Sequence record: NC_025447.1 | From: Escherichia phage 121Q | Length of the DNA: 64,000 nt | Strand: one strand, 5' to 3' | Shown here: in pieces, positions 9,545-45,980 of the stretch | Layout: the number at the start of each line of letters is the position of its first letter | Numbering within the stretch: the stretch's first letter is position 1 | Notes under the pieces: generated by a model | What the model saw: the letters and a program-made list of their open reading frames with translations, nothing else | Databases searched by the model: none | What the model was told of the DNA's origin: nothing | Translations under genes and position numbers: made by a program

Positions 9545-9590
9545 TATAAATAATCTATAGATAATGGCAGCTTGGCTATGGAGAATTATA

Positions 9591-11984
9591 ATGACAACTT
9601 TTACCCCACGTTGGGATATAAAAGCCGATGCTCGATATATACAAGAAGGACAAGACATTCTTGTGCGTTTGAGTATCAATAAAGAAAGCACAACGGATGA
9701 TAGCTATGTATTAAACGAAGATGAATACTTAGAGATGATTCTTAATATACAATGCTTGGATAGTTCAGGTGCTGTATTTGATCCAGAACCACATTATACT
9801 TTTTATGTTGGTAATGACGAAAATAGTTTTATTCCTATTTCAGATGGAACAACTGGTAATAAATTAGTAAATGGTAAGCATAAGTGTAAGATTAGCAAAA
9901 CAGAATTTAACTTATCATCAAGTACTAATACTGAAGATGTTTATTTTATAAAAATTCATTGTAAAAATGACGGAACATATAATAATACTGAAAATATAAA
10001 TTTTTATTTACAAGCAGTAAATGTTATGTATTTTGGGAATATTTCACCAAGTGGAGTTTTAGGATTAACAGATACTTCAATAACATATGATAGTCAGGAA
10101 GTTTGGGTTACACCTGGAGTTGAGATTGGTGATGACAAAAAACTTTATTGTATTGGTGATGTTGAGTATGGTTCAAACAGTACATTGTTTGTTCAAGGGT
10201 TTGGGAGAAGAAGACCTTTTATACTCGGTACTGACATGACTACCGATATTACCCCTCGTGTATTCTTTCCTGCATATCGTTTGATTGACATGGATATATC
10301 TGAAGTTCCAGATAAACATATTACTAATGATTATGCCGTATTTAAACCAGCACAACCAACATGGCCTATTTCTGGCATAAACAAAGAAGTAAAAGTTAAT
10401 ATTCAAAATAGAAATGGTAATTTAATTGATTCAGGTATGGTTTTTAACCCTAATGGACAATTACTACAAACATTTTTATATGATTCAGATGCGTGTGATG
10501 CATATTTCAAAGTTGAAATTGTTGATATATTAAGTACATACACAGAAGAAAGCGAAAGGTTTGCTATCAATCAAAGATATAAGGCATATCAAATGTGGGT
10601 TTGTCCTGAAGATATTGACACTATATATTCTATAGCTGACAAACCACTACCGAATCATTTATATCAATTAAAAGATAACGTTGTATATCCCTATGTGATT
10701 AGTGGTGAGTACGACAATGGGTCAATTAAACCAGTTTATGATAGTAGTGATTGGATTGATTTGGGATATTATGACTCTACTCTTGGTGATAATATCATTG
10801 GTATGCAGAAAATGTTCAGGGTTTTGATTAACGCTGAAGAAGGTAATAATATAAACTTTGTTACTGATAGTGATTTGGGAACTATACATGTTGGTGAATA
10901 TTTTGGAGACAGTACCTATCCTAGAATAGAAACTGATAGTTCAAATCAGGTTTCGTATGTTTTGGATGGTGGTGATGATATTAGGAAGTATGGAATAGAT
11001 TTGACACCTGACGGATATCTTGTTGGAACTGCATATGCCAAAAGTATTGACTTTAGTGAAAACGATGACATTAAACTATCGTTTTATGTTAAAGCATTTA
11101 GTACTGAAGGTGGCGAAGCAAGGAAAATATTTAACCTTAAGATTGTAAGAGGGTTCGGTCAGAATTATTTGAGTGCACATGTACTACCGTCTGTTGCATT
11201 TGAGCGAGAGTGGTTTAAATGTATCAGTACTTCATCATTTACTAATCAACTTTTTTTCCGTCAATCTGATAATAGGTATGGTCTTCAGAAAGTTCCTAGG
11301 ATGTTATTGAAAGAAAACTTTCTAAGTCAAACGTACCCATATACTAATCTTTCGGATATCAAAAAAGTATTACGAAATAGTATCATTAATCCAAATGGCT
11401 CTACTATACCAAATGGAAAATTTAAAATGGTAATGGGTAATTATAAATTGATATCAGCACTTGACAATCAAGGCAATTTGCAATATGATTTATTATATAG
11501 AGAAGTTTTACCTGAAGGTTCTTTAGTATCTGTATCCAAAAATCCTCGTATGTATACTCAAATAGATAATGGTCAGCTTGGTGAACTGTTTGGTCTACGT
11601 CAAAATATCTTTCAAGCTATTGGTGAAGACACAACAAACTTGGTAAAAGATCCAACTGATTTACAAAATCGTGGTCTATACGTTGATGCTATACCAAGTA
11701 TCAGCGATGAAATGCTTGATACCGTTCCAAGATTTATGAATCACCCATACATTGAAGATGGTATACAGAAAAAATTCATGCCTATTATCCCAGTCGCATT
11801 TTGTCAGCCAGGTAAAGGTGAAGCATTTTTCAACACTTTACTTCAGAATAATGAACATGGTACAATGGTAGGTCTAGAGTTTGAAATCACATCTGTCGAA
11901 TTTGGGTACTTTTCACATGAATCAGTAAATTATGTACCAGATACATTTGTGATTACATTGCAAAACAATAACATAGGAGGTTAA
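9591..11984 (+). CDS. large hypothetical protein
   Basis: About 800-aa ORF; start placed at second ATG 9591 with GGAG-like RBS (track ORF 9564); no recognised motif. Confidence 0.6.
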   Translation: MTTFTPRWDIKADARYIQEGQDILVRLSINKESTTDDSYVLNEDEYLEMILNIQCLDSSGAVFDPEPHYTFYVGNDENSFIPISDGTTGNKLVNGKHKCKISKTEFNLSSSTNTEDVYFIKIHCKNDGTYNNTENINFYLQAVNVMYFGNISPSGVLGLTDTSITYDSQEVWVTPGVEIGDDKKLYCIGDVEYGSNSTLFVQGFGRRRPFILGTDMTTDITPRVFFPAYRLIDMDISEVPDKHITNDYAVFKPAQPTWPISGINKEVKVNIQNRNGNLIDSGMVFNPNGQLLQTFLYDSDACDAYFKVEIVDILSTYTEESERFAINQRYKAYQMWVCPEDIDTIYSIADKPLPNHLYQLKDNVVYPYVISGEYDNGSIKPVYDSSDWIDLGYYDSTLGDNIIGMQKMFRVLINAEEGNNINFVTDSDLGTIHVGEYFGDSTYPRIETDSSNQVSYVLDGGDDIRKYGIDLTPDGYLVGTAYAKSIDFSENDDIKLSFYVKAFSTEGGEARKIFNLKIVRGFGQNYLSAHVLPSVAFEREWFKCISTSSFTNQLFFRQSDNRYGLQKVPRMLLKENFLSQTYPYTNLSDIKKVLRNSIINPNGSTIPNGKFKMVMGNYKLISALDNQGNLQYDLLYREVLPEGSLVSVSKNPRMYTQIDNGQLGELFGLRQNIFQAIGEDTTNLVKDPTDLQNRGLYVDAIPSISDEMLDTVPRFMNHPYIEDGIQKKFMPIIPVAFCQPGKGEAFFNTLLQNNEHGTMVGLEFEITSVEFGYFSHESVNYVPDTFVITLQNNNIGG

Positions 11985-11985
11985 T

Positions 11986-12297
11986 ATGTTTAATCCGTTT
12001 TTTGACCCGTCTGGGATGACGGAGAAAGAACTACAGTTGAAAATTAATGAACAGTCAATGCGTATAACTTCAGCCCGTGCCGCTGGTATGAGTGATATGA
12101 TTATTGGTAATATGCAAACTGTGTTAAATCAATGTTATGCTGAACTAGAACTTCGTCAAGGACAAAAAGAAAAATCTGTTTATGATGAAGAAGACTCATG
12201 TATCTTCGACATGGATTCTTATCTAACTGACAATGAAGAGGCCCAGAAAAAGAAAAATGAAAGTACAAGGAAACAGATTTATAAGTCCCAATGGTGA
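11986..12297 (+). CDS. hypothetical protein
   Basis: 103-aa ORF starting 2 nt after upstream stop. Confidence 0.5.
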   Translation: MFNPFFDPSGMTEKELQLKINEQSMRITSARAAGMSDMIIGNMQTVLNQCYAELELRQGQKEKSVYDEEDSCIFDMDSYLTDNEEAQKKKNESTRKQIYKSQW

Positions 12298-12775
12298 TGT
12301 AAAATGTAATCTTAACGCAGTAGTTTATGCAATCAATTGCGGTGCGGATATCCAGTACTTACAATTGCAGGAAATTGATGAACCTGAAAGGTTGAAATTC
12401 AATGATAACTGTAAAAAATTTGGCTTAGAACAACGTATGCTGGATTATACTATCGAGCATGATAAAAATCATGAACTTTGGCGTTATGATCCAGTATACG
12501 ACAATATAAATCTACGTGACTTTTTCTTACAAAAATGTACATCAGATGAAGCACGAAAGCGTGTTGAGTATGAACTAGATTTATATGAATATTATAATAT
12601 GACAAAGCTATTAAGATGTATGATATGGCTTGTTGATTATATGGAAGAAAATGAGATCTTTTGGGGTCTAGGGCGTGGAAGCTCGGTTGCATCATACTGT
12701 TTGTTTTTGATTGGTCTACACATGGTAGATTCATTGAAATACGAACTCGATGTTAATGAATTTTTGAAATGGTAG
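12233..12775 (+). CDS. hypothetical protein
   Basis: ORF overlapping upstream gene; start ambiguous between 12233 and 12257. Confidence 0.5.
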   Translation: MKRPRKRKMKVQGNRFISPNGDVKCNLNAVVYAINCGADIQYLQLQEIDEPERLKFNDNCKKFGLEQRMLDYTIEHDKNHELWRYDPVYDNINLRDFFLQKCTSDEARKRVEYELDLYEYYNMTKLLRCMIWLVDYMEENEIFWGLGRGSSVASYCLFLIGLHMVDSLKYELDVNEFLKW

Positions 12776-13191: not shown

Positions 13192-13518
13192 ATGTCTAAT
13201 AAAGTAATGACTGCATGTAAAGGTAAAGTACTAGTCACTGAACTGGAACATGGTGAACGCAAAACAGCAGGTGGAATCGTTTTAACAAACGATGACGGTA
13301 AAATTAGAGGTATTCGTTCTCGCTGGGCTAAAGTATATTCAGTAGGCGAAGACATTACTGATATTAAAGAAGGTCAATGGATTTTAATTGATCATGGTCG
13401 TTGGTCAAGAACGATTGAGGTTGATGGTATTGAACTAAACCTAGTTGATTACCCTGCCGCTGTTAGTTTAGTATCTGATGAAGACCCACGCACTAAAATG
13501 CTAACCTTTGGACGTTGA
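13192..13518 (+). CDS. 31: GroES-family co-chaperonin (gp31-like)
   Basis: 108 aa; ERKTAGGIVLT and downstream GxxVxxVG / GD pattern typical of Cpn10/GroES. Confidence 0.85.
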   Translation: MSNKVMTACKGKVLVTELEHGERKTAGGIVLTNDDGKIRGIRSRWAKVYSVGEDITDIKEGQWILIDHGRWSRTIEVDGIELNLVDYPAAVSLVSDEDPRTKMLTFGR

Positions 13519-13531
13519 TAAAATATAATTA

Positions 13532-13558
13532 AAGCTCGGATTAATATCTGGGCTTTTT
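13532..13558 (+). terminator. putative terminator
   Basis: AGCTCGG..CTGGGCT stem with G-U pairs followed by TTTTTAT. Confidence 0.4.
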
Positions 13559-13574
13559 ATTTGGACACATTTTG

Positions 13575-13844
13575 ATGATAACGGATGATGGAAAATTTAG
13601 TTTCAAAGATGTAACATTAGTATCAAAAAACGGAAGATTCATGTTTGAAGATAGAAAAAATACAAAATATGTATATGAAGTTTCACATGATATGTTTAAA
13701 GTTTTATTAGTTGCATCGGCCCAAGCTGAAAGTACTGGGATTAAAAATAAGGCAAATTCTTTTAATTTTTTATTAAATCAATTGGAAATGACAGAAGAAC
13801 TTTTCACGGCTTTATTATATAATTCAGCCGATTGGATTCTATAA
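13575..13844 (+). CDS. hypothetical protein
   Basis: ORF; track start 13572 is TTG, first ATG at 13575. Confidence 0.45.
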   Translation: MITDDGKFSFKDVTLVSKNGRFMFEDRKNTKYVYEVSHDMFKVLLVASAQAESTGIKNKANSFNFLLNQLEMTEELFTALLYNSADWIL

Positions 13845-13867
13845 CACGTACACATAAGGAAATAAAA

Positions 13868-14821
13868 ATGACCACACTATGGACTGAAAAATATCGCCCA
13901 CAATCAATGGAAGATTATGTATCAAAAAATGATGCACTACGCCAGAAAATGGAAGAATGGATTAAAACTGGTGACATTCCACATATTGGGTTTTTTGGCC
14001 CAGCAGGAACTGGTAAAACATCTGCGATCAAAGTACTCATTAATGGATTGGTACAGAATGGACACCTTGACCCAAGTGATGTGACTACGCTTAACATGTC
14101 GGATGAGGGTATTGATGCAGTTCGTGATAAAATCGATGCCGCAGCAAAGCTATCATGTTTTGGTAGGTATCGTATCTTTGTTCTTGAAGAAATGGAGCAG
14201 ATGAACCATAAAGCACAAGGTAGTTTGAAACGTGTAATGGAAGACTATCATGAAAATGCTCGCTTTATTTTAACAAGTAACGAACCACATAAAATTCAAA
14301 AACCTATCATTTCTCGTGTTCAAGTTATTACAATCGAAAAGCATGATATGGAACAATTCATGACTCGAATTTATAATATTCTTCTAGCAGAAGGTGTTGA
14401 TTTGAGTAGTGATGATAGTGTTGAACAAGTTCAAAAGTATATCAATGCTTCCTATCCTGATTTCCGTAAAACACTAAACGTATTGCAAAGTTCAGTTGTT
14501 GATGGTAAGCTAGTAAAACTTGAAGATAGTATTGAAAATTCAGCAGGGTATCGTACTGCAATTGTTGAAGCATTAAAGGCAGGAAACATTCGCCAAATGC
14601 GTGAACAAATTGTACAAAATATCCCTGATGATGAGATGGATGCATTCTTTTCTTATCTGTATCGTAATGCTGAAATGTTCAGTACTGATGAAATTACTCT
14701 TATGAAAATCAAGGTTAAGATTCGTGATGCTGTTGTAAAACAAGCAACTGTATCTGACCGTGAAATGAATCTCAGTGCACTTCTGTGCGAGATTGACCTA
14801 ATTTGTTCGGGGAACATGTAA
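13868..14821 (+). CDS. RFC/gp44-like AAA+ clamp-loader ATPase
   Basis: WTEKYRP box, Walker A GPAGTGKTS, sensor-1-like ILTSN, ISRVQ (SRC-like); start placed at ATG 13868 after AAGGAAA RBS, giving 318 aa. Confidence 0.75.
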   Translation: MTTLWTEKYRPQSMEDYVSKNDALRQKMEEWIKTGDIPHIGFFGPAGTGKTSAIKVLINGLVQNGHLDPSDVTTLNMSDEGIDAVRDKIDAAAKLSCFGRYRIFVLEEMEQMNHKAQGSLKRVMEDYHENARFILTSNEPHKIQKPIISRVQVITIEKHDMEQFMTRIYNILLAEGVDLSSDDSVEQVQKYINASYPDFRKTLNVLQSSVVDGKLVKLEDSIENSAGYRTAIVEALKAGNIRQMREQIVQNIPDDEMDAFFSYLYRNAEMFSTDEITLMKIKVKIRDAVVKQATVSDREMNLSALLCEIDLICSGNM

Positions 14822-15447
14822 TGAAACCACGTTGTATAGTTTTTGATTGTGATGAAGTTCTATTGGACCATATGGGTATGCTTTCTGAGTTCGTAAAACA
14901 AACTTATAATATCACACCATCAACACCATACCCATTAGAATATGATTTATCCGATTGGTTGGGTGTCCCCCAACAAGAAGTTAAAAAAATTCTTGAACAA
15001 TTCAACCAACAATCATATTTGTTTGGGTTGTTAAAACCAGTCGAACCTAATACAGTTGATATTGTACAAGAGCTACGTGATCGTTTTCATAAAGAAAAAT
15101 TTGTAGTACTAACAAAATGTGGCAAAAAAGGTTATGGAGAAGTTTTACGTAATGTAAACCTAATGCGTGAATTTGGTGAAAACTGTTTTGATGAGATTAT
15201 TATTATTGAAATGAACGAATCAAAGAAACAAGCACTAGAGGATTTACAGTCTAGATATGATGTAAAACTTATGATTGATGATTATATCAATAATATTGAA
15301 ACTGCAATGGGACTTGGTATTCCGTCAGTTATGATGGGATGTTCTCATAATTCAATGTATAAGAACACTGGTAATTTTGAATACATTGAGAATTGGACAG
15401 ATCTTAGATTGAAAATTTATTCAGTACTAGGTAAATATTACAAATAA
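14821..15447 (+). CDS. HAD-superfamily hydrolase (possible nucleotidase)
   Basis: N-terminal IVFDCDEVL = HAD motif I (DxDx[TV]); TAATG overlap with upstream gene. Confidence 0.6.
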   Translation: MKPRCIVFDCDEVLLDHMGMLSEFVKQTYNITPSTPYPLEYDLSDWLGVPQQEVKKILEQFNQQSYLFGLLKPVEPNTVDIVQELRDRFHKEKFVVLTKCGKKGYGEVLRNVNLMREFGENCFDEIIIIEMNESKKQALEDLQSRYDVKLMIDDYINNIETAMGLGIPSVMMGCSHNSMYKNTGNFEYIENWTDLRLKIYSVLGKYYK

Positions 15448-15459
15448 AACTTTTAAATT

Positions 15460-15496
15460 GGGGGGTTTGAATCAAACCCCTTTTGTTGTTTTTTAA
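15460..15496 (+). terminator. intrinsic terminator
   Basis: GGGGGGTTTGAATCAAACCCC hairpin followed by T-rich tract. Confidence 0.6.
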
Positions 15497-15545: not shown

Positions 15546-16109
15546 ATGGACGATTTAGATTATACAGATAATGCTATTCAGCAGTTGTATGATAACAGTG
15601 GTATGTTAGATATACTTCTTGCTGTAGAAAAATATTTCGATGATAATGATTTGTATGCGTATAAAGGAATTATTGAGGGTGAGTTGGTAGAGGGACCAAT
15701 TGTAAGTAAGTATTGGTGTACTGTAACATTTAAATACTATCGTGAAAATTTCCCTGATCCTACAGCATTCTCTATTTTGGAGAAGCATGGTACTAAAGTG
15801 TATGTTAAAGCTGATTATGAAATAACTCCTATCAAAGAACCTAATCGACAAGCTGATATGAAAAGTGTTGCGACACAATCAGGATCGGTACGTATACCAA
15901 AAAATGAAAGAATCCCAGTACTATTGGTTAGAGTGCAGATTCCACGAAACTTAATTAATCCAGAAAGTTTTGATGAATATAAACTAATGGCAGCAGAATT
16001 CAATAGTAATCCAATGAATTCACCAGAAAATTTTGAAGAACCTGTAACTGGTGATGATGTAGATTTGGATGTGGAAGTAACGGATGAGACACAAGAAGGT
16101 GGAATGTAA
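15546..16109 (+). CDS. hypothetical acidic protein
   Basis: 187-aa ORF. Confidence 0.55.
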   Translation: MDDLDYTDNAIQQLYDNSGMLDILLAVEKYFDDNDLYAYKGIIEGELVEGPIVSKYWCTVTFKYYRENFPDPTAFSILEKHGTKVYVKADYEITPIKEPNRQADMKSVATQSGSVRIPKNERIPVLLVRVQIPRNLINPESFDEYKLMAAEFNSNPMNSPENFEEPVTGDDVDLDVEVTDETQEGGM

Positions 16110-16789
16110 TGAAAAAGAAATTAAATGAACAAGGCTTACGTCCGCAAGTTCTCAAAGATTTGATTCATCCTATAATTAGTGTTGATGAATATACTCCTAA
16201 AATTGAAGATAGTAATATTGTTATTATGTTTCAGGTTCTTAACAATTTTGATGCAGCATATGATTTATCTTCTTTTATTGAAAAATCACCTATTGATGTA
16301 GTTGATACAGAAGCAGCAGAAACACCAAATTTAGATGGTCGATATCAAGTTTATGTGGAAATGGAACGAAATGCTGAATTCCCTGAAAAACTTTTACGTT
16401 TAATTAAAACTATTGAAAATATTTGTCCAGACCCAGGTTGGAAAATACAACTATATGGTGTTAATGACCCAATCGATGTTGATTTTGAAGAAATACAGCA
16501 GAGAATTGATTTGGGCATTCCTAGTTCAATTAGTGAGTTCCTTGATTATGCTGGTGTTTCAGTAATCAAAGAAGGAAACATGTTGACATTAAAAACAGCA
16601 TATGGTAAATTACACTACAGTACTGGAAGCGGTTTTGTTTCAGAAACATATGTGAAAAAGTTATTAAAGAATGATACACAATTAGACACTTCGCGTCTTA
16701 GTTCCATACTAGGGGAAAGCTATACAGTACTACGAAGTGGTGATCAATATGTAATTGGAAGAAACGGGAAATATTTGGTGTTGCGATGA
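16109..16789 (+). CDS. hypothetical protein
   Basis: 226-aa ORF, start overlaps upstream stop. Confidence 0.55.
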   Translation: MKKKLNEQGLRPQVLKDLIHPIISVDEYTPKIEDSNIVIMFQVLNNFDAAYDLSSFIEKSPIDVVDTEAAETPNLDGRYQVYVEMERNAEFPEKLLRLIKTIENICPDPGWKIQLYGVNDPIDVDFEEIQQRIDLGIPSSISEFLDYAGVSVIKEGNMLTLKTAYGKLHYSTGSGFVSETYVKKLLKNDTQLDTSRLSSILGESYTVLRSGDQYVIGRNGKYLVLR

Positions 16790-17701: not shown

Positions 17702-18829
17702 ATGAAAGGTAAATATTTTTTCATTGAAAATGGCAAAGAAGTTGAGATTCAAGAATTTAACTATAATTATGTACTGAACTCTTTATTGAAACAATATGAC
17801 CGTTCATCAAACAAAAAATACATTTATAATGTAATTGTTCGCCGCACCTATGACTCATTGGGTAATCCGTTATTTGATGTAAAAACTCTGTCATTAGATG
17901 AAATCTATTTTGATAATAAACGTCTGAAAGTTCTTGATTTAATGAAGGATAAAATTCATTTTAGTAATATTAGAATTGATCCTAACATGCCAGTACCGCC
18001 ATTAGAGCGTGAATATCGTGAATGGAAAGAAGGTCGTGCCAAACCACGTTTAGACTTGGTACAAACATCACCAGATGTACCTGCACCTATTGTTCTTAAG
18101 AAAAAACCTATCAACCCAGACGATAGCAGAATTGATGACATTGAAAGATGGGTTGAATTCCCTAGTACTATTGAAAAGAATTCAGTAAAAGTACTAGACT
18201 GGTTTGTAAACTTACCAGTTTGTGCACAAGAAATTGGAACTAAGATTCAACAAATTTCAGAACGTCAATTGGATCTTAACTCAGCATTACAACAGCATAG
18301 TGATTATATTAGAATGCTTATGAATAACCTTACTGTTGCGTTGGAAACGTTGTTCCCATTGAAGCCGACCTTTACACAGAAATTGTTTGGTAAAACTGAT
18401 ATCAAAGTGCAACCATCAGATTTGCCAAAAGTGATGAAAGCACTAAATGAAGCAGTTAAATATGACACTAATAAGTTTAGTGGTCTTAGTACGATGTTTT
18501 CAGAACTTAGAAACGAAGTTAATGAAATCAAAAATGAACTTGAATATGGTAAGTTGGGTTGTGAATACGCACTACGTTGTGTGGATGATGCGTTTGAATA
18601 TGAATTAACATTAGAACGTATTATGAAAATGGGAATCACCACCTCCATGACTGAAACGAGCATTATTGCAACAAGTAAGCAATATCAAGTTGATATGAAT
18701 CGTATGGTAGATATTCAAACTATTACTATTCCTTTGATTATCAATCGTTTACAATCACAGACAGGTAAAGCCGTAGATGAGAGTACTGTAGAGATTATTC
18801 GTAATCTGGCATATGGTAACAAAGAGTAA
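17702..18829 (+). CDS. hypothetical protein
   Basis: 375-aa ORF. Confidence 0.6.
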   Translation: MKGKYFFIENGKEVEIQEFNYNYVLNSLLKQYDRSSNKKYIYNVIVRRTYDSLGNPLFDVKTLSLDEIYFDNKRLKVLDLMKDKIHFSNIRIDPNMPVPPLEREYREWKEGRAKPRLDLVQTSPDVPAPIVLKKKPINPDDSRIDDIERWVEFPSTIEKNSVKVLDWFVNLPVCAQEIGTKIQQISERQLDLNSALQQHSDYIRMLMNNLTVALETLFPLKPTFTQKLFGKTDIKVQPSDLPKVMKALNEAVKYDTNKFSGLSTMFSELRNEVNEIKNELEYGKLGCEYALRCVDDAFEYELTLERIMKMGITTSMTETSIIATSKQYQVDMNRMVDIQTITIPLIINRLQSQTGKAVDESTVEIIRNLAYGNKE

Positions 18830-18914: not shown

Positions 18915-20051
18915 ATGTCCGAGAAAGAAATCAATCCTAAAAAAGCATCCACCGCAGCTAAATCAGCAAAACGTACTACTAAAACTGCGACTAAAGGTCA
19001 TACAATTGATGCAAGTGATATTTTTAACCAAACTACAAAATCACTACCAGTACTGAAAGATGTTAAGGGAAATACTATGTCTCTAACAGTTCAAAACATC
19101 AATACTGTTGGTACAACTGCTGGTGCTGCTGTTGGGCGTTTGGCTGATGAAATTATGTCTAAAGTTAATGTAACGGATGACAATACCGAGTTTGGTAAAT
19201 CAATCACCACAATTCTTACGTTGACTCGTGCAGTTGATATTGATAGTCTTCAAGAAGATAAATCAATTGTTGGTCGTATTAAGAAATTCTTTGTTAATGC
19301 TCAACAGAAAGTAGGTGATCAGTACAAAAACAGTAAAGAGCAAATTGACGAAATTATGAAAACTCTTCAAACTGGTATTAATCGCCAGCACGGAGAATGT
19401 GAATGGCTTGATAAAGCATATAATGAAAACAAAGAATATTTGTTTGAATTGCGTGATACATTAGTTGGTTTAGAAGAAGTGACTAAAACACAAGATGCAT
19501 TATTAGTAGAAATGCAAGCAGACAAAAATGTAGACTCTTTTGCTATTCAAGAGCAAAAGATGATTTGTGAAGCACTTTCTAAACAAGAAGATAAGATTCG
19601 TCGTCTTATCATGATGTGCGAGCTAAGTGGTCCACGTTTGATGAGTATGAAAAAAGTAAACTTAAACACTGTTTCTAAGTTTGAAGATTTAAAATCTGTT
19701 GTTATTCCAGCATGGAAGTCTCAATTGGCTGAACAGTTAATTTCCGAGCGTCAACGTAAGGATAATGAACTAGGCAATCTGATTGATAATGAGACAAACC
19801 GTCTTTTGGAAACTAACTCTAAAATGGTTGCAGCAAATATGTTGGACGCAGCAAAGGCAAACAACCGTGGTATTGTGGATATTAAAACCTTGCGTAATGT
19901 ACATAAAACGATGATTGACAGTATTGAAGCAGTTATTGAAGAAGAGAAAAAAGGTAAATTGGAACGTGAACGTGCTAAACAGGAAATTGCACAACTTTCC
20001 TATGAACTGGAAGACACTCTTCGTGAAATTGCCGAAAAAGCTAACAAGTAA
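18915..20051 (+). CDS. hypothetical coiled-coil-rich protein
   Basis: 378-aa ORF after strong promoter and RBS. Confidence 0.6.
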   Translation: MSEKEINPKKASTAAKSAKRTTKTATKGHTIDASDIFNQTTKSLPVLKDVKGNTMSLTVQNINTVGTTAGAAVGRLADEIMSKVNVTDDNTEFGKSITTILTLTRAVDIDSLQEDKSIVGRIKKFFVNAQQKVGDQYKNSKEQIDEIMKTLQTGINRQHGECEWLDKAYNENKEYLFELRDTLVGLEEVTKTQDALLVEMQADKNVDSFAIQEQKMICEALSKQEDKIRRLIMMCELSGPRLMSMKKVNLNTVSKFEDLKSVVIPAWKSQLAEQLISERQRKDNELGNLIDNETNRLLETNSKMVAANMLDAAKANNRGIVDIKTLRNVHKTMIDSIEAVIEEEKKGKLERERAKQEIAQLSYELEDTLREIAEKANK

Positions 20052-40659: not shown

Positions 40660-40995
<336 letters not shown>

Positions 40996-40996
40996 A

Positions 40997-41179
40997 ATGA
41001 CACACGAAGAATGGATGTACAAACAGCATAAAGAACATGACTGCTTTGGGAATGGTATTCGTCAGGTACATTATGATATTCTCAAAGATATAAATTTATT
41101 CATAAAATATGTTTTGGATGAAAATAAACATTGGTTTATATATGAGATTGCATATAGAAACTCAAATAAACAAAAATAA
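40997..41179 (+). CDS. MTHEEW-family small protein
   Basis: MTHEEWMYKQ...HWFIYEIAYRN; paralog of 40477..40653. Confidence 0.5.
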   Translation: MTHEEWMYKQHKEHDCFGNGIRQVHYDILKDINLFIKYVLDENKHWFIYEIAYRNSNKQK

Positions 41180-41193
41180 ATAAGGAATATATT

Positions 41194-41412
41194 ATGGAAA
41201 CAACGTTATTTGAAGTTATTCAAGCATTAAAAACTGGTGATGACATTCAAGTATTGCTACATGGTTATCGTTTAAAAGGCACTGTGGTTTTAGTTAATGA
41301 CACAACGTTAGTTATTGCCGAAACAAATCCATATGATAGTAATCAAGTTGCTAATATCCATATTGATATTAAAAGCATTATTGGTGTAGGCGTAAATAAA
41401 AATCAAGAATAA
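41194..41412 (+). CDS. hypothetical small protein
   Basis: 72-aa ORF. Confidence 0.45.
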   Translation: METTLFEVIQALKTGDDIQVLLHGYRLKGTVVLVNDTTLVIAETNPYDSNQVANIHIDIKSIIGVGVNKNQE

Positions 41413-41490
41413 CAAATGTTTTTGAAAAAAACCAGAAAATGAATGATTTTTTTGGACAACTCAAAAATATATGATATAATAATTAGTACA

Positions 41491-41580
<90 letters not shown>

Positions 41581-41584
41581 ATAT

Positions 41585-41680
<96 letters not shown>

Positions 41681-41689
41681 CTAAAAACC

Positions 41690-41854
41690 ATGACGCATGA
41701 AGAATGGATGAATGATATTAATTTTAGATATTCGGGTATCGGTAGTTGGCGAAAATATCATTGGGAAATTATTTCAGACCCAGCAGAATACGATAAACTT
41801 ATAAACCATGAAGTATATCCGTGGTTCTTTATTGAAATAATGGTACGAATATGA
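41690..41854 (+). CDS. MTHEEW-family small protein
   Basis: MTHEEWMNDINFRYSGIGSW...; 54 aa. Confidence 0.5.
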   Translation: MTHEEWMNDINFRYSGIGSWRKYHWEIISDPAEYDKLINHEVYPWFFIEIMVRI

Positions 41855-42011
41855 CGCATGAAGAATGGATGAATGACATTAATTTTAGATATTCGGGTAT
41901 CGGTAAATGGCTAAAGTATCATTGGGAATTCATTTCAGAGCCACATATGTATGATAAACTTATCAACGATCCAGCATATGAAATGTACTTAATTGAACTA
42001 CTGGTACGAAT

Positions 42012-42015
<4 letters not shown>
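41851..42015 (+). CDS. MTHEEW-family small protein
   Basis: MTHEEWMNDINFRYSGIGKW...; near-duplicate of 41690 copy; ATGA overlap. Confidence 0.5.
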
Positions 42016-42177
<162 letters not shown>

Positions 42178-42185
42178 AAAAAAAG

Positions 42186-42595
<410 letters not shown>

Positions 42596-42599
<4 letters not shown>

Positions 42600-42630
42600 C
42601 TAAATAATTCAGTACTGAGGATATTAATAT
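42596..42630 (+). promoter_or_regulatory. degenerate copy of promoter cassette (copy 2)
   Basis: TTGACTAAATAATTCAGTACTGAGGATATTAATAT; -35 and spacer conserved, -10 degraded. Confidence 0.35.
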
Positions 42631-42656
42631 GTTTAAAGATGAACGTCCAGATTTGT

Positions 42657-42694
<38 letters not shown>

Positions 42695-42699
42695 GAATT

Positions 42700-43050
42700 C
42701 CACAATCAGACGTATATGGTGTAAGCTACGTCGATGCAATCCAGAACAAGATCTCTGGTACTCTAGGAAGTGGTGAATGTTAACCTAGACGGGTTTGATA
42801 ATTGGACGATAGGCAATTATTACTTGACTAGCAGGTTGAAACTAGAGGTGACAGTCCTTCACCAAACTGGAAAACCGGATGGACTTTTATTTAAAAGGGT
42901 AAGGCGTGGAAATATGTTTACAGAAGTTGCTTTTAGTAGCCTGTACGCCCCACGACAAGGTAGCCGAAAGGTAAGTTAAAACGGGTGGTTATAAAGCTGA
43001 ATTAACAGCGGCGTTTAAAAGCGTCACCATCCATTTTTTTAATTAAAGTT
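42700..43050 (+). ncRNA. candidate structured non-coding RNA downstream of early promoter
   Basis: About 350 nt between a consensus promoter and the next RBS with no convincing ORF, locally GC-richer, several hairpins including GGTGACAGTCCTTCACC and a GAAA-loop stem. Confidence 0.3.
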
Positions 43051-43056
43051 GGCGAT

Positions 43057-43809
<753 letters not shown>

Positions 43810-43826
43810 TTCACATGATATAGGGA

Positions 43827-44088
<262 letters not shown>

Positions 44089-44096
44089 GAATCTTC

Positions 44097-44498
44097 ATGA
44101 AAAAGAATGACTTGATCAAAATGCTCCAAGAGATTGACGGCAATCCAGAGATTGTTATTTGGAATGGCTATGTCGATGATTATATGAACATCGAAAAAGG
44201 CTTGACTAAAATCACACTAGTCAAAGAAACTGAACAGTTCCTTCTGAACGCATTAGAGCATGAATGGTGCGAACGTAACAAGACATTCGACATTCCAGAA
44301 GACCAACGAACTAAGATTGCAGAACGTGCTAAAGAACTTCATAAGAAGCGTGAATACGATTTCCAGAACCCATATGTTACTGAAGAAGAATTCAATCGCT
44401 GGTACGGAAAAAGAAAGTTGACAAAGTATGTTCTTTCACCTAAACTACGTGGTAAGACTTCTCTTGGTGTATTCAATGCATCTGACTTAGATTACTAA
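44097..44498 (+). CDS. hypothetical protein (paralog pair with 45138..45353)
   Basis: N-terminus MKKNDLIKMLQEIDGNPEIVIW resembles MKAKDLISILQKNPEADILIH. Confidence 0.55.
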   Translation: MKKNDLIKMLQEIDGNPEIVIWNGYVDDYMNIEKGLTKITLVKETEQFLLNALEHEWCERNKTFDIPEDQRTKIAERAKELHKKREYDFQNPYVTEEEFNRWYGKRKLTKYVLSPKLRGKTSLGVFNASDLDY

Positions 44499-44508
44499 GG
44501 AAAACAAA

Positions 44509-44829
44509 ATGATGTGGTATTCAAATGTACCGTGTGAACCTAAATATATTCAGATTTCACATAATGCACTGAAAGCGTTCTGTGATAATTGCAGTACTAA
44601 AGATTATCACTTCGAAGACTTCAGAACGTTGATTTATGACCATCACTGTCAGCCAGCAACCAAAGATGGTATGTTTGTAATTGAACAATTCTTTCATGGT
44701 AAGGTATTGCAAATTGTTGCTGATTATCTGAAAGCAATGGGATATATTATCAAAGATGATTATCTTGATTTAGAAGGTGAATGCATTGTTGATGGTTATG
44801 ATGGTGTACTGATGAATTGGACATGGTGA
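44509..44829 (+). CDS. hypothetical protein
   Basis: 106-aa ORF. Confidence 0.5.
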   Translation: MMWYSNVPCEPKYIQISHNALKAFCDNCSTKDYHFEDFRTLIYDHHCQPATKDGMFVIEQFFHGKVLQIVADYLKAMGYIIKDDYLDLEGECIVDGYDGVLMNWTW

Positions 44830-44833
44830 TGAA

Positions 44834-45136
44834 ATGATTGCAACAATGATGATTGTACTTATCCCAATAGTACTAGTAATTCTAGTGACTTCATATGGTG
44901 CAACCACAACTATTGAAGATCTAAAAACACATTACGCTATCGTCTTTAGTGAAGCACATGAAGACTTTGGTACAGTACTGACCGATAAGACTTATATTGC
45001 AACTAAATGTAAGTACTACCGATTCTGGGAACGTTCTGACAAATACCACTACAGAGATGAGAAAGGCGTGAATCAGTACTTAGACGTACTGGATGCATTC
45101 TTGAAACCTTACTATACAGTAACCGAGGTAAAATAA
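44834..45136 (+). CDS. hypothetical membrane-anchored protein
   Basis: N-terminal TM MIATMMIVLIPIVLVILV. Confidence 0.5.
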   Translation: MIATMMIVLIPIVLVILVTSYGATTTIEDLKTHYAIVFSEAHEDFGTVLTDKTYIATKCKYYRFWERSDKYHYRDEKGVNQYLDVLDAFLKPYYTVTEVK

Positions 45137-45137
45137 C

Positions 45138-45353
45138 GTGAAAGCTAAAGATTTGATTTCAATTTTACAGAAAAACCCAGAAGCAGATATTCTTATTCAT
45201 GCTTCGCCTTATGATGACTATGCGATTGGTAGTTGCGAAACTGCTCATTCATATCAAGCAGGGGACACCGCTGTTGAAGAGTCTGGTGAAGATTTTTCGG
45301 AATCATTTGATGAAGATGGAAAACTCTTAGTACCAGTCATCATTCTCTCATAA
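45138..45353 (+). CDS. hypothetical protein (paralog pair with 44097..44498)
   Basis: GTG start in track; N-terminal similarity to 44097 ORF. Confidence 0.45.
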   Translation: MKAKDLISILQKNPEADILIHASPYDDYAIGSCETAHSYQAGDTAVEESGEDFSESFDEDGKLLVPVIILS

Positions 45354-45360
45354 AAGAACG

Positions 45361-45543
<183 letters not shown>

Positions 45544-45562
45544 AGAGGTACTTCGAGTATGC

Positions 45563-45629
<67 letters not shown>

Positions 45630-45632
45630 TAA

Positions 45633-45661
45633 TTGACATAACTTTGAATGGAGTGTATTAT
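45633..45661 (+). promoter_or_regulatory. sigma70-type promoter
   Basis: TTGACA, 17-nt spacer, TATTAT. Confidence 0.5.
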
Positions 45662-45704
45662 GTTCCAAGAAGAAAACTGGGGTTTTTAACATAACGGGGA
45701 ATGT

Positions 45705-45837
<133 letters not shown>

Positions 45838-45838
45838 G

Positions 45839-45889
<51 letters not shown>

Positions 45890-45895
45890 TAATTA

Positions 45896-45968
45896 GCCGA
45901 CTTAGCTCAGTAGGTAGAGCGTTCCTCTTGTAAGGGAAATGTCACCAGTTCAATTCCGGTAGTCGGCA
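45896..45968 (+). tRNA. tRNA-Thr (anticodon UGU)
   Basis: Perfect acceptor GCCGACT/AGTCGGC, D-arm GCTCAGTAGGTAGAGC, anticodon loop CTTGTAA, T-loop TTCAATT; CCA not encoded. Confidence 0.65.
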
Positions 45969-45980
45969 CAAAATAAAGGT

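What the first reader, a model, noticed from the sequence alone, without database searches (positions are those of the whole stretch)
13868..15447. RFC/gp44-like clamp-loader ATPase located away from any clamp or polymerase genes, paired with a HAD hydrolase
The ATPase has the RFC box (WTEKYRP), Walker A and SRC-like motifs typical of clamp-loader large subunits, yet its neighbours are a GroES-like co-chaperonin and a HAD-family hydrolase rather than sliding clamp, gp62-like subunit or DNA polymerase. Either the replication module is rearranged relative to T4 or this is a second, diverged clamp-loader-like ATPase with another role.
Basis: partly seen in the sequence, partly recalled or inferred. 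Interest (0 to 1): 0.4.

Follow-up and report, generated by a model that had tools for sequence, protein, structure and literature searches.

The report
Phage clamp loader with distant partners
The gene is the ordinary ATPase subunit of a T4-type sliding-clamp loader in a known giant coliphage. It only looks orphaned because its clamp and small-subunit genes are very diverged and lie 34-49 kb away, outside the window.

Summary
Window 13868-14821 encodes a 317-aa RFC/gp44-type AAA+ protein with all catalytic motifs intact. Its stop overlaps (TAATG) the start of an NT5C-type HAD 5'-nucleotidase at 14821-15447.

The window is about 96% identical to Asteriusvirus (Rak2-like) jumbo coliphages. There the gene is already annotated as a clamp loader, and the RaK2 and CBB papers state that gp45 and gp62 homologs are missing.

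I found one RFC-like gene per genome, so it is not a second paralog. The two best positional candidates for hidden partners, the 187-aa and 226-aa ORFs downstream, are virion proteins by predicted structure and are not clamp or gp62.

The real partners lie elsewhere:
- A 243-aa "hypothetical protein" about 550 nt downstream of the family-B polymerase is a divergent gp45-type clamp (profile-profile probability 97.9%, E 4.9e-13).
- A 281-aa protein in the UvsW/primase/helicase cluster is the probable gp62-like small subunit. This rests on reciprocal HMM hits, and two GenBank records carry the same annotation.

The T4 45-44-62 operon is therefore scattered over three loci. The "rearranged replication module" reading is right and the "other role" reading is not supported. 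This is an ordinary, already known gene, with a modest correction to the literature.

The parts
13868..14821 (+). gp44/RFC-small-subunit-type AAA+ ATPase, the large subunit of the phage clamp loader (317 aa)
   Evidence: PHROG_168 E 1e-78 full length. Pfam DNA_pol3_delta2, AAA, Rad17 and Gp44_lid. PDB: RFC small subunits E 4e-31, T4 gp44 E 4e-19, E. coli gamma/tau E 2e-11. Walker A, the Walker B Glu, sensor 1, the SRx arginine finger and the sensor 2 Arg are invariant across 13 homologs of 27-76% identity.
14821..15447 (+). NT5C-type HAD 5'(3')-deoxyribonucleotidase-like phosphatase (208 aa). It is translationally coupled to the ATPase and is not a clamp-loader component.
   Evidence: Pfam NT5C E 2.6e-7 (31.1 bits, cutoff 24.8), plus Hydrolase and HAD_2. 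Motif I is DCDEV. TAATG overlap with the ATPase stop. Homologs lie within 10 kb of the ATPase in only 19 of about 73 related loci.
13575..13844 (+). Small ORF (89-90 aa) of unknown function, first gene of the three-gene unit. Not gp62-like.
   Evidence: ORF; annotated as a CDS in relatives. PHROG_16539, unknown function. Homologs found in only 4 related loci. hhalign against gp62: probability 0.2%.
13531..13556 (+). Terminator-like hairpin upstream of the unit
   Evidence: Consensus scan: 11-bp stem followed by a T-run. Sequence read.
15460..15482 (+). Terminator-like hairpin directly after the HAD gene, closing the unit
   Evidence: Consensus scan: 10-bp stem with 5 GC pairs followed by a T-run. 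Sequence read. The G17 record annotates two terminators in this stretch.
12233..12775 (+). Context: N-terminal half of a split minimal DNA polymerase III alpha (DnaE-like), 1.1 kb upstream. It is linked to the ATPase gene in 71 related loci.
   Evidence: Pfam DNA_pol3_alpha E 2e-9. NCBIfam DnaE models. Aligns to E. coli alpha residues 321-392 and ends just before the catalytic Asp segment. Split enzyme described by Iyer et al. 2021, PMC7824862. Synteny.
13192..13518 (+). Context: Cpn10/GroES-like (T4 gp31-like) protein, 108 aa
   Evidence: Pfam Cpn10 E 2.2e-5. PHROG_931 'head morphogenesis' E 1e-20. Conserved in 71 related loci.

Best explanation
Window 13868-14821 encodes the ATPase (gp44-type, 'large') subunit of a conventional T4/RFC-type sliding-clamp loader of an Asteriusvirus (Rak2-like) jumbo phage.

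By homology with the solved T4 gp44/62-gp45 and RFC-PCNA complexes (inferred, not shown here), the mechanism would be as follows:
1. Four copies of the ATPase assemble through their C-terminal collar domains with one small subunit.
2. The complex binds ATP and opens a trimeric gp45-type ring.
3. It places the ring on a primer-template junction.
4. It hydrolyses ATP, using the trans-acting arginine of the S-R-x motif, and releases the ring.
5. The family-B DNA polymerase is then tethered to the ring through its C-terminal aromatic tail.

The partners are encoded by the phage, but at other loci and in very diverged form:
- The clamp is the 243-aa protein about 550 nt downstream of the PolB gene (JP4_CDS0715; G17 157,713-158,441). 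It lies about 49 kb upstream of the ATPase gene.
- The probable gp62-type small subunit is the 281-aa protein JP4_CDS0734 (G17 142,618-143,460). It lies about 34 kb upstream, between the UvsW helicase and the primase/DnaB genes.

The T4 45-44-62 operon has therefore been scattered. The HAD gene is a co-transcribed NT5C-type nucleotidase of nucleotide metabolism, not part of the loader.
For: Shown here:

1. Identity of the ATPase.
- Full-length matches to clamp-loader families.
- The 42 best matches among solved structures are RFC, gp44 or gamma/tau subunits.
- The catalytic residues are invariant across homologs of 27-76% identity.

2. Single copy.
- The 745-feature annotation of the 96%-identical phage JP4 has one clamp loader.
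- The extra 'RFC' hits from jackhmmer are ClpA/B and PhoH.

3. The clamp.
- The JP4_CDS0715 family has 366 representatives, all about 240-250 aa.
- It matches the gp45 family profile-to-profile with probability 97.9%, E 4.9e-13, over 204 collinear columns (92.5% in an independent run).
- Its HMM, run against 7,590 ORFs, picks exactly the 8 gp45 genes of T4-type loci (E 4e-15 to 4e-12; next hit 0.035).
- RB69 gp45 is the only PDB sequence hit (E 0.16).
- It sits next to PolB here and in a distant relative.
- Three GenBank records already call it a sliding clamp.

4. The small subunit.
- A gp62 HMM finds JP4_CDS0734 as the top hit of 2,397 ORFs (E 4.7e-4). The match is in two collinear pieces and includes the motif K-x-F-T-P-Y-x-V-x-R-W-x-S.
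- The reciprocal HMM ranks all 10 gp62 genes first among 7,590 ORFs.
- Phages Turkey3 and Turkey5 annotate it 'sliding-clamp-loader small subunit'.
- It is embedded in the UvsX-UvsY-DnaQ-UvsW ... primase-DnaB cluster in relatives of 37-43% identity.

5. The PolB C-terminal tail.
- The PolB of Rak2-like phages keeps a conserved C-terminal tail...EKS[TS]xExN[TS]GFFxW. It is of the same style as the clamp-binding tail of T4 gp43...EEKASLDFLFG.

6. Phylogeny.
- A neighbour-joining tree places the ATPase in a monophyletic clade. That clade is sister to T4-type phage loaders that have canonical adjacent gp45 and gp62 genes.
Against: - The RaK2 and CBB papers state that gp45 and gp62 homologs are absent.
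- Pfam, PHROG-based annotation and a gp45 HMM with all filters off do not detect the clamp candidate directly. Its assignment rests on profile-profile and deep-profile searches.
- The gp62-like assignment is statistically modest: hhalign probability is only 56%, over 21 columns. The protein is about 100-130 residues longer than known gp62 proteins (281 aa against 143-187 aa).
- Walker B reads LEE instead of the canonical DE in the Rak2 clade. This is conservative but untested.
- Stoichiometry, clamp trimer formation and loading activity are all inferred.
Confidence: 0.85

Rival explanations
1. True orphan loader. The phage encodes no clamp of its own, and the ATPase loads the host beta clamp (or acts without a ring), as the published statements that gp45 and gp62 are missing would imply.
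For: The RaK2 and CBB papers report no gp45 or gp62 homolog. Iyer et al. note other phage groups with an RFC-like loader and no detectable clamp. No standard family model detects a clamp in the genome. The phage also carries PolIII-alpha-like and DnaQ-like genes that are of bacterial type.
Against: A gp45-type clamp family member is encoded next to PolB, with probability 97.9% and E 4.9e-13, plus specific HMM hits to all 8 gp45 genes in the test set. It is independently annotated as a clamp in three GenBank records. The ATPase is of RFC/gp44 type, not DnaX type.
Confidence: 0.04
2. The ATPase is a diverged clamp-loader-like AAA+ protein that has taken on another job (for example RarA-like fork remodelling or a checkpoint-type role). 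Its operon partner, the HAD nucleotidase, would point to a nucleotide-linked function.
For: The gene is separated from all partner genes and is translationally coupled to a nucleotidase. Walker B has D->E in this clade.
Against: It is the only RFC-like gene in a genome that encodes a clamp and a gp62-like protein, both of which would otherwise lack an ATPase. It matches clamp-loader subunits over its full length, including the collar domain; RarA is a much weaker hit at E 9e-7. It is sister to loaders with canonical partners. HAD linkage is not conserved: 19 of about 73 loci.
Confidence: 0.04
3. The ATPase does load the phage clamp, but as a homo-oligomer or with an unidentified fifth subunit. 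On this reading the 281-aa protein JP4_CDS0734 is not a gp62 equivalent.
For: The gp62 similarity is confined to two short segments: hmmsearch E 4.7e-4, hhalign probability 56% over 21 columns. The protein is about 100-130 residues longer than known gp62 proteins (281 aa against 143-187 aa). Pfam finds nothing in it.
Against: Forward and reciprocal searches are both specific: it is the top hit of 2,397 ORFs, and all 10 gp62 genes rank first of 7,590 ORFs. It has a conserved position inside the replication/recombination cluster. Phages Turkey3 and Turkey5 independently annotate it as the small subunit.
Confidence: 0.07

Closest known systems
Bacteriophage T4 clamp loader gp44/gp62 with clamp gp45 (PDB 3U5Z/3U60/8UNF)
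   Same: Same three-component system. The AAA+ subunit has an RFC box, Walker A/B, sensor 1, an SRx arginine finger, sensor 2 and a collar domain (27% identity to gp44). The clamp is a two-domain gp45-type protein of about 240 aa. A small subunit shares the gp62 signature motif. The PolB has a C-terminal aromatic tail.
   Different: The genes are not in a 45-44-62 operon next to gene 43. They are scattered over three loci 34-49 kb apart. The clamp and small subunit are so diverged that Pfam and PHROG models miss them. The small subunit is about 100-130 residues longer than known gp62 proteins (281 aa against 143-187 aa). Walker B reads LEE rather than IDE. The ATPase scores higher against archaeal/eukaryotic RFC small subunits (112 bits) than against gp44 (72 bits).
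Archaeal/eukaryotic replication factor C small subunits (e.g. A. fulgidus RFC-S 2CHQ, yeast Rfc2-5)
   Same: Best sequence matches (E 4e-31 to 1e-19). Alignment to the RFC small-subunit model covers the full length (residues 2-311 against model positions 5-316 of 322).
   Different: Below the NCBIfam equivalog cutoff (165 bits against 303). The partner clamp is gp45-type, not PCNA proper. It is a phage lineage sister to the T4-type loaders.
Bacterial DnaX (gamma/tau), the name given to this gene in the Sharanji and slurp01 GenBank records
   Same: Same AAA+ clamp-loader clade (E 2e-11 to E. coli gamma).
   Different: TIGR02397 dnaX_nterm scores 78.6 bits against a cutoff of 250. There are no tau C-terminal domains, and RFC and gp44 models score far higher. 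The 'dnaX/tau' label is a misnomer.
Sphingomonas phage PAU clamp (gp109), as described by Kazlauskas et al. 2016
   Same: Precedent for the same situation. A loader was recognised first, and the clamp next to the polymerase was found only with unfiltered HMM and HHsearch after adding homologs.
   Different: A different phage lineage. In PAU a gp62 homolog was readily found.

Membership tests
Clamp-loader AAA+ clade, gp44 / RFC small-subunit type | N-terminal RFC box (x-W-x-E-K-Y-R-P) | tested here: met
   LWTEKYRP at residues 4-11. W5, K8, Y9 and R10 are nearly invariant and P11 is invariant in alignment A1.
Clamp-loader AAA+ clade, gp44 / RFC small-subunit type | Walker A P-loop GxxGxGK[T/S] | tested here: met
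   GPAGTGKT. G47, G49 and K50 are invariant.
Clamp-loader AAA+ clade, gp44 / RFC small-subunit type | Walker B hhhhDE with a catalytic Glu | tested here: met
   FVLEE. The catalytic E108 is invariant. The preceding Asp is Glu in the Rak2 clade, but Asp in the 40%-identity clade and in T4. The effect of this D->E change is untested.
Clamp-loader AAA+ clade, gp44 / RFC small-subunit type | Sensor 1, the S-R-C-type arginine finger and the sensor 2 arginine | tested here: met
   T136/N138, S149-R150 (SRV here; SRC in T4 and the more distant clade) and P197-D198-x-R200 are all invariant.
Clamp-loader AAA+ clade, gp44 / RFC small-subunit type | C-terminal helical collar domain for pentamer assembly | tested here: met
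   NCBIfam RFC small-subunit model aligned over residues 2-311 (model positions 5-316 of 322). PHROG_168 aligned over residues 3-314. The alignment to T4 gp44 runs to the C-terminus. This is sequence-level evidence only.
Clamp-loader AAA+ clade, gp44 / RFC small-subunit type | A cognate sliding clamp encoded in the same genome | tested here: met
   JP4_CDS0715 family against the gp45 family: hhalign probability 97.9%, E 4.9e-13. Specific HMM hits to 8 of 8 gp45 genes. No predicted structure.
T4-type loader (gp44/gp62) | A non-AAA+ small subunit (gp62) | tested here: met
   JP4_CDS0734: gp62 HMM E 4.7e-4, top hit of 2,397 ORFs. The reciprocal HMM ranks 10 of 10 gp62 genes first. Turkey3 and Turkey5 annotate it as the small subunit. 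Statistical strength is modest (hhalign 56%).
T4-type loader (gp44/gp62) | Genes 45, 44 and 62 contiguous and next to the polymerase gene | tested here: not met
   The clamp gene lies about 49 kb and the gp62-like gene about 34 kb from the ATPase gene (G17 coordinates; JP4 map). This is a difference in gene order, not in the proteins.
Clamp-loader AAA+ clade, gp44 / RFC small-subunit type | ATP-dependent opening and loading of the clamp on primed DNA | not testable with these tools
   Requires biochemistry.
Archaeal RFC small subunit (NCBIfam NF001679 equivalog) | Score above the curated equivalog cutoff | tested here: not met
   165.4 bits against a cutoff of 303. It is a relative, not an equivalog.
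Bacterial DnaX gamma/tau (TIGR02397) | Score above the curated cutoff | tested here: not met
   78.6 bits against a cutoff of 250.
HAD superfamily, NT5C 5'(3')-deoxyribonucleotidase family (the neighbouring gene) | Pfam NT5C score above the gathering threshold, and motif I DxDx[T/V] | tested here: met
   31.1 bits against 24.8. FDCDEV near the N-terminus. Substrate not testable.

The most novel reading that the evidence does not exclude
The way the loader genes are scattered may not be random. The ATPase gene sits 1.1 kb downstream of the N-terminal half of the split minimal Pol III alpha. The gp62-like gene sits about 1 kb upstream of its C-terminal half. The clamp gene sits beside PolB. These adjacencies hold in relatives down to 37-40% identity. 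The most novel reading not excluded is that this large clade of jumbo phages runs a hybrid two-polymerase replisome. In it, one RFC/gp44-type loader and one gp45-type clamp would serve both a family-B polymerase and a two-piece bacterial-type Pol III alpha (with a DnaQ-like proofreader). The loader subunits would be physically coupled to the Pol III halves, as tau is coupled to alpha in bacteria.
Probability: 0.12. Interest if true: 0.6.

Novelty: already known. Interest (0 to 1): 0.2.

Why it matters
For the finding itself, little. It is a correctly recognisable clamp-loader gene of a published phage genus, and its odd neighbourhood reflects the dispersed replication genes of these jumbo phages.

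The follow-up has modest value:
- It corrects a statement repeated since 2013 that Rak2-like phages lack gp45 and gp62.
- It shows that a family of several hundred divergent clamps (about 243 aa, next to PolB) is invisible to Pfam and is labelled 'hypothetical protein' in nearly all deposited genomes.
- It supports the rule that viral clamp loaders always come with their own clamp.
- It shows that 'orphan' loaders reported in other phage groups should be re-examined with deep profiles before unusual biology is proposed.

Tried and rejected
1. Downstream ORFs as hidden gp62 and clamp.
- The 187-aa (15546-16109) and 226-aa (16109-16789) ORFs looked promising. Their sizes match T4 gp62 (187 aa) and gp45 (228 aa), and the 226-aa protein has pI 4.86 against 4.89 for gp45. 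They are linked to the ATPase in 63 loci, and they are absent exactly where gp45 and gp62 are recognisable.
- Both proteins were detected in phAPEC6 virions by mass spectrometry. hhalign against gp45 and gp62 gave probabilities below 1%.
- This used both structure-prediction jobs, so the real clamp candidate could not be modelled.

2. A second RFC paralog near the gene. The jackhmmer 'RFC' hits of about 760 aa and about 250 aa are ClpA/B-type AAA+ and PhoH proteins.

3. Direct detection of a clamp. All of the following were negative:
- gp45 HMM of 116 sequences with filters off against all six-frame ORFs (best E 0.65).
- E. coli DnaN by phmmer (best E 0.35).
- Pfam on 10 replication-region hypothetical proteins at E <= 1.
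- A shallow profile of the clamp candidate against the PDB and against gp45 (probability 2.5%), plus domain-wise hhalign.
Only a deep profile from the 1.84-billion-protein search made the relationship significant.

4. Other conserved neighbours as gp62 or clamp. The 103-aa, 114-aa, Cpn10-like, 90-aa and 272-aa proteins and the HAD protein, plus the small ORFs between PolB and the clamp, gave no signal.

5. Supplements. The supplementary files of Iyer 2021 and Kazlauskas 2016, which might list a Rak2 clamp, are not held.

6. Promoters. A sigma-70 promoter scan of the region was no better than shuffled sequence, with 32 sites against an expected 30.7.
Full report
**What the window is.** A 3-kb stretch around the finding is 96.4% identical at the DNA level to Escherichia phages vB_EcoM_G17, Sharanji and JP4. 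It is 94.8% identical to PBECO4, phAPEC6 and SP27. These are Asteriusvirus, or 'Rak2-like', jumbo myophages of about 350 kb. An IMG/VR contig of 348,532 bp (IMGVR_UViG_2706795820_000001) carries a 100% identical copy of the ATPase. In these records the gene is already named 'clamp loader of DNA polymerase', 'DNA polymerase accessory protein', 'rfc: ATPase AAA' or, wrongly, 'dnaX: DNA polymerase III subunit tau'.

**Checking the observation.** The ORFs are real.
- The ATPase runs from ATG 13868, preceded by AAGGA at 13857-13861, to TAA at 14819-14821 (317 aa).
- The HAD gene starts at ATG 14821, overlapping that stop in the sequence TAATG, and ends at 15447 (208 aa).
- Terminator-like hairpins at 13531-13556 and 15460-15482 bracket a three-gene unit: a small ORF at 13575-13844, the ATPase, and the HAD gene.

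The ATPase matches clamp-loader families at every level tested:
- PHROG_168 'clamp loader of DNA polymerase': E 1e-78 over its full length.
- Pfam DNA_pol3_delta2, AAA, Rad17 and Gp44_lid.
- NCBIfam RFC small subunit: E 1.7e-48 over residues 2-311, below the equivalog cutoff.

Among solved structures its 42 best matches are all clamp-loader subunits. Archaeal RFC-S scores E 4e-31, yeast and human RFC2-5 score 1e-30 to 1e-19, T4 gp44 scores 4e-19, and E. coli gamma/tau score 2e-11. The first protein outside the clamp-loader group is RarA at 9e-7.

An alignment with 12 homologs of 27-76% identity, including T4 gp44, shows the following residues invariant or nearly so:
- the RFC box;
- Walker A (G47, G49, K50);
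- the Walker B glutamate (E108);
- sensor 1 (T136, N138);
- the arginine finger (S149-R150; the motif reads SRV here);
- sensor 2 (P197-D198-x-R200).

The one deviation is Walker B LEE instead of DE in the Rak2 clade. The HAD protein passes the Pfam NT5C threshold and has the catalytic DCDEV motif.

[quoted passage not shown] Genome papers from 2020 to 2026 simply list 'a clamp loader'. Iyer et al. 2021 (PMC7824862) describe a split minimal Pol III alpha alongside the family-B polymerase in their group 2.2 jumbo phages. Kazlauskas et al. [quoted passage not shown] They also describe finding the hidden clamp of phage PAU next to its polymerase.

**Is it a second copy?** I read the complete 745-feature annotation of phage JP4. 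It has one clamp loader, and no annotated clamp or small subunit. Replication genes are spread over about 55 kb and interspersed with virion genes, in this order:
- PolB;
- SSB, UvsX, UvsY, a DnaQ-like exonuclease and UvsW;
- a 212-aa 'DNA polymerase';
- primase and DnaB;
- ribonucleotide reductase and DHFR;
- RNase H and Dda;
- topoisomerase II;
- the Pol III alpha fragment;
- a Cpn10-like gene;
- the ATPase.

Additional 'RFC' hits that appeared in iterative searches of related loci are ClpA/B-type and PhoH proteins. The 'second, diverged ATPase' reading therefore fails.

**Relatives and synteny.** The protein has more than 2,700 database relatives. I fetched 80 viral loci around relatives, plus three more from metagenome contigs.

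In about 73 of them the ATPase lies in a conserved block: a large He_PIG-like virion protein, a 103-aa protein, the Pol III alpha N-fragment, a 114-aa protein, the Cpn10-like protein, the ATPase, and then a 187-aa/226-aa gene pair.

Ten other loci have the canonical T4 order gp45-gp44-gp62 and lack that block entirely. A neighbour-joining tree (no bootstrap) places T4 gp44 basal. The T4-type environmental loaders form one clade, and the block-bearing loaders form its monophyletic sister. A HAD homolog lies within 10 kb in only 19 loci, so the HAD pairing is local.

Both were detected in purified phAPEC6 virions. They are virion proteins. The complementary distribution reflects genome architecture that differs between the two clades.

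**Finding the clamp.** Direct searches failed:
- a gp45 HMM with filters off (best E 0.65);
- E. coli DnaN by phmmer;
- Pfam on ten candidates.

Reading those candidates, the 243-aa protein about 550 nt downstream of PolB (JP4_CDS0715, pI 5.5) showed, by eye, clamp-like domain-start patterns twice. Shallow profiles still gave nothing. A profile of 13 orthologs searched against 1.84 billion representative proteins then returned 366 relatives, nearly all 240-250 aa.

With that depth the relationship became clear:
- hhalign of the family against the gp45 family gave probability 92.5% in my own run.
- With curated alignments A5 and A6 it gave 97.9%, E 4.9e-13, over 204 collinear columns (9-239 against 16-222).
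- The family HMM, run against 7,590 ORFs from the ATPase loci, hit exactly the eight gp45 genes of the T4-type loci (E 4e-15 to 4e-12) and nothing else (next E 0.035).
- RB69 gp45 is the only PDB sequence within E <= 10 (E 0.16).

No Pfam clamp model hits any of 139 family members. The gene follows PolB in a distant relative too.

In GenBank it is 'hypothetical protein' in nearly all of the 60 records listed, including RaK2, GAP32, CBB, PBECO4, G17, phAPEC6, Sharanji and JP4. It is called 'sliding clamp' in phages Turkey3 and Turkey5, and 'DNA polymerase III sliding clamp beta' in Sinorhizobium phage Phosso.

The PolB of Rak2-like phages also keeps a conserved C-terminal tail...EKS[TS]xExN[TS]GFFxW. 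It is in the style of the T4 gp43 clamp-binding tail...EEKASLDFLFG.

**Finding the small subunit.** A gp62 HMM (T4 plus ten environmental homologs), run with filters off against all 2,397 ORFs, gave one hit. This was JP4_CDS0734 (281 aa) at E 4.7e-4. The match is in two collinear pieces and includes K-E-F-T-P-Y-T-V-L-R-W-V-S-S aligned to the gp62 consensus k-k-F-s-p-f-i-v-n-r-w-l-S.
- Reciprocally, an HMM of 75 CDS0734 relatives ranked all ten gp62 genes first among 7,590 ORFs (E 2e-6 to 0.03).
- hhalign probability is only 56%, over 21 columns, so this assignment is weaker than the clamp's.
- Turkey3 and Turkey5 independently label the ortholog 'sliding-clamp-loader small subunit'.
- In relatives of 37-43% identity it keeps its place in the cluster UvsX, UvsY, DnaQ-like, UvsW, two small ORFs, gp62-like, two ORFs, Pol III alpha C-fragment, primase and DnaB.

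**Where the partners are.** In G17 coordinates the ATPase region is at 106,908-109,906, the gp62-like gene at 142,618-143,460 and the clamp gene at 157,713-158,441. All three are on the same strand. They therefore lie about 34 and about 49 kb upstream of the ATPase, beyond the start of the window. Neither family HMM finds anything in the window itself (best E 0.31 and 0.81).

**How it most likely works.** Three things are shown: the identity and intact catalytic apparatus of the ATPase, the existence of a gp45-type clamp, and the existence of a probable gp62-type subunit in the same genome. The mechanism is inferred from the T4 and RFC structures. On that basis a 4:1 pentamer binds ATP, opens the trimeric ring, places it on primed DNA, and releases it on hydrolysis, which depends on the arginine finger. 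PolB is then tethered by its C-terminal tail. The HAD gene is a co-transcribed NT5C-type nucleotidase. It most likely adjusts deoxynucleotide pools, like the many other nucleotide-metabolism genes of these phages. Nothing indicates that it is part of the loader.

**What remains open.**
- The D->E change in Walker B is untested.
- One curious regularity is unexplained. The ATPase gene adjoins the N-half of the split Pol III alpha (which aligns to E. coli alpha 321-392 and ends just before the catalytic aspartates). The gp62-like gene adjoins the C-half (which starts with a conserved KARTDIDID). The clamp gene adjoins PolB. This may simply reflect conserved genome order, or it may hint that the loader and clamp serve both polymerases.

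**Verdict.** The feature is real and ordinary, and the gene is already annotated as a clamp loader. The by-product is a correction to the published claim that Rak2-like phages lack gp45 and gp62. Two recent GenBank annotations partly anticipate that correction.

Noticed in passing
window 12233-12775 (+); partner gene outside the window (JP4 PQ330092 369771-370409 = L005:48772-49410): N-terminal half of a split minimal DNA polymerase III alpha. It aligns to E. coli DnaE residues 321-392 and stops just before the catalytic Asp motif. The 212-aa C-half begins with a conserved KARTDIDID and lies about 1 kb downstream of the gp62-like gene. Each loader-subunit gene therefore adjoins one half of the split polymerase. 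These adjacencies persist in relatives of 37-40% identity.
   Followed up: partly
window 15546-16109 and 16109-16789 (+): An overlapping gene pair (187 aa and 226 aa) conserved in 63 related loci and detected in phAPEC6 virions. Confident AlphaFold models have no strong structural neighbour. The 187-aa protein weakly resembles tail-terminator/neck proteins. The 226-aa protein has an N-terminal alpha/beta sandwich and a C-terminal beta-rich domain. Their sizes and pI mimic gp62 and gp45, which is a trap for annotation by size and position.
   Followed up: yes
window 13192-13518 (+); second copy outside the window (JP4 353954-354253): There are two Cpn10-like genes in the genome. A weak one (Pfam E 2e-5, gp31-like PHROG) lies two genes upstream of the ATPase. 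A clear GroES (Pfam E 6.5e-17) lies two genes downstream of the clamp gene. So both the loader gene and the clamp gene have a co-chaperonin-like near neighbour. No explanation.
   Followed up: no
window 40682-45969 (+): A cluster of six tRNA genes: Gly-tcc, Ser-tga, Ser-act, Met-cat, Asn-gtt and Thr-tgt. The tRNA called Ser with anticodon ACT is unusual (unmodified A34) and may be a miscall or a modified or atypical tRNA.
   Followed up: no
window 13868-14821, as annotated in OR545507 (Sharanji) and LT603033 (slurp01): The gene is labelled 'dnaX: DNA polymerase III subunit tau' in these records. It scores 78.6 bits against a cutoff of 250 for the DnaX model, and far better against RFC and gp44 models, so the label is a misannotation.
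   Followed up: yes
outside the window: PolB C-terminus (JP4 349393-352398; loci L096-L113): The last ~14 residues of PolB, ...EKS[TS]xExN[TS]GFFxW, are conserved across Rak2-like phages of 71-100% identity. The tail resembles the clamp-binding tail of T4 gp43.
   Followed up: partly
window 18915-20051 (+) and 17702-18829 (+): A TelA-like (toxic anion resistance family) protein, preceded by a 375-aa protein of unknown function that is conserved only in close relatives. Iyer et al. suggest that standalone TelA in these phages acts in superinfection exclusion.
   Followed up: no
window 9564-11984 (+): An 806-aa acidic virion protein (phAPEC6 gp158c, 9 peptides). Its homologs in related loci carry He_PIG Ig-like domain hits and vary from about 590 to 1,500 aa. 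It sits between the topoisomerase II genes and the Pol III alpha fragment, showing how structural and replication genes are interleaved here.
   Followed up: no
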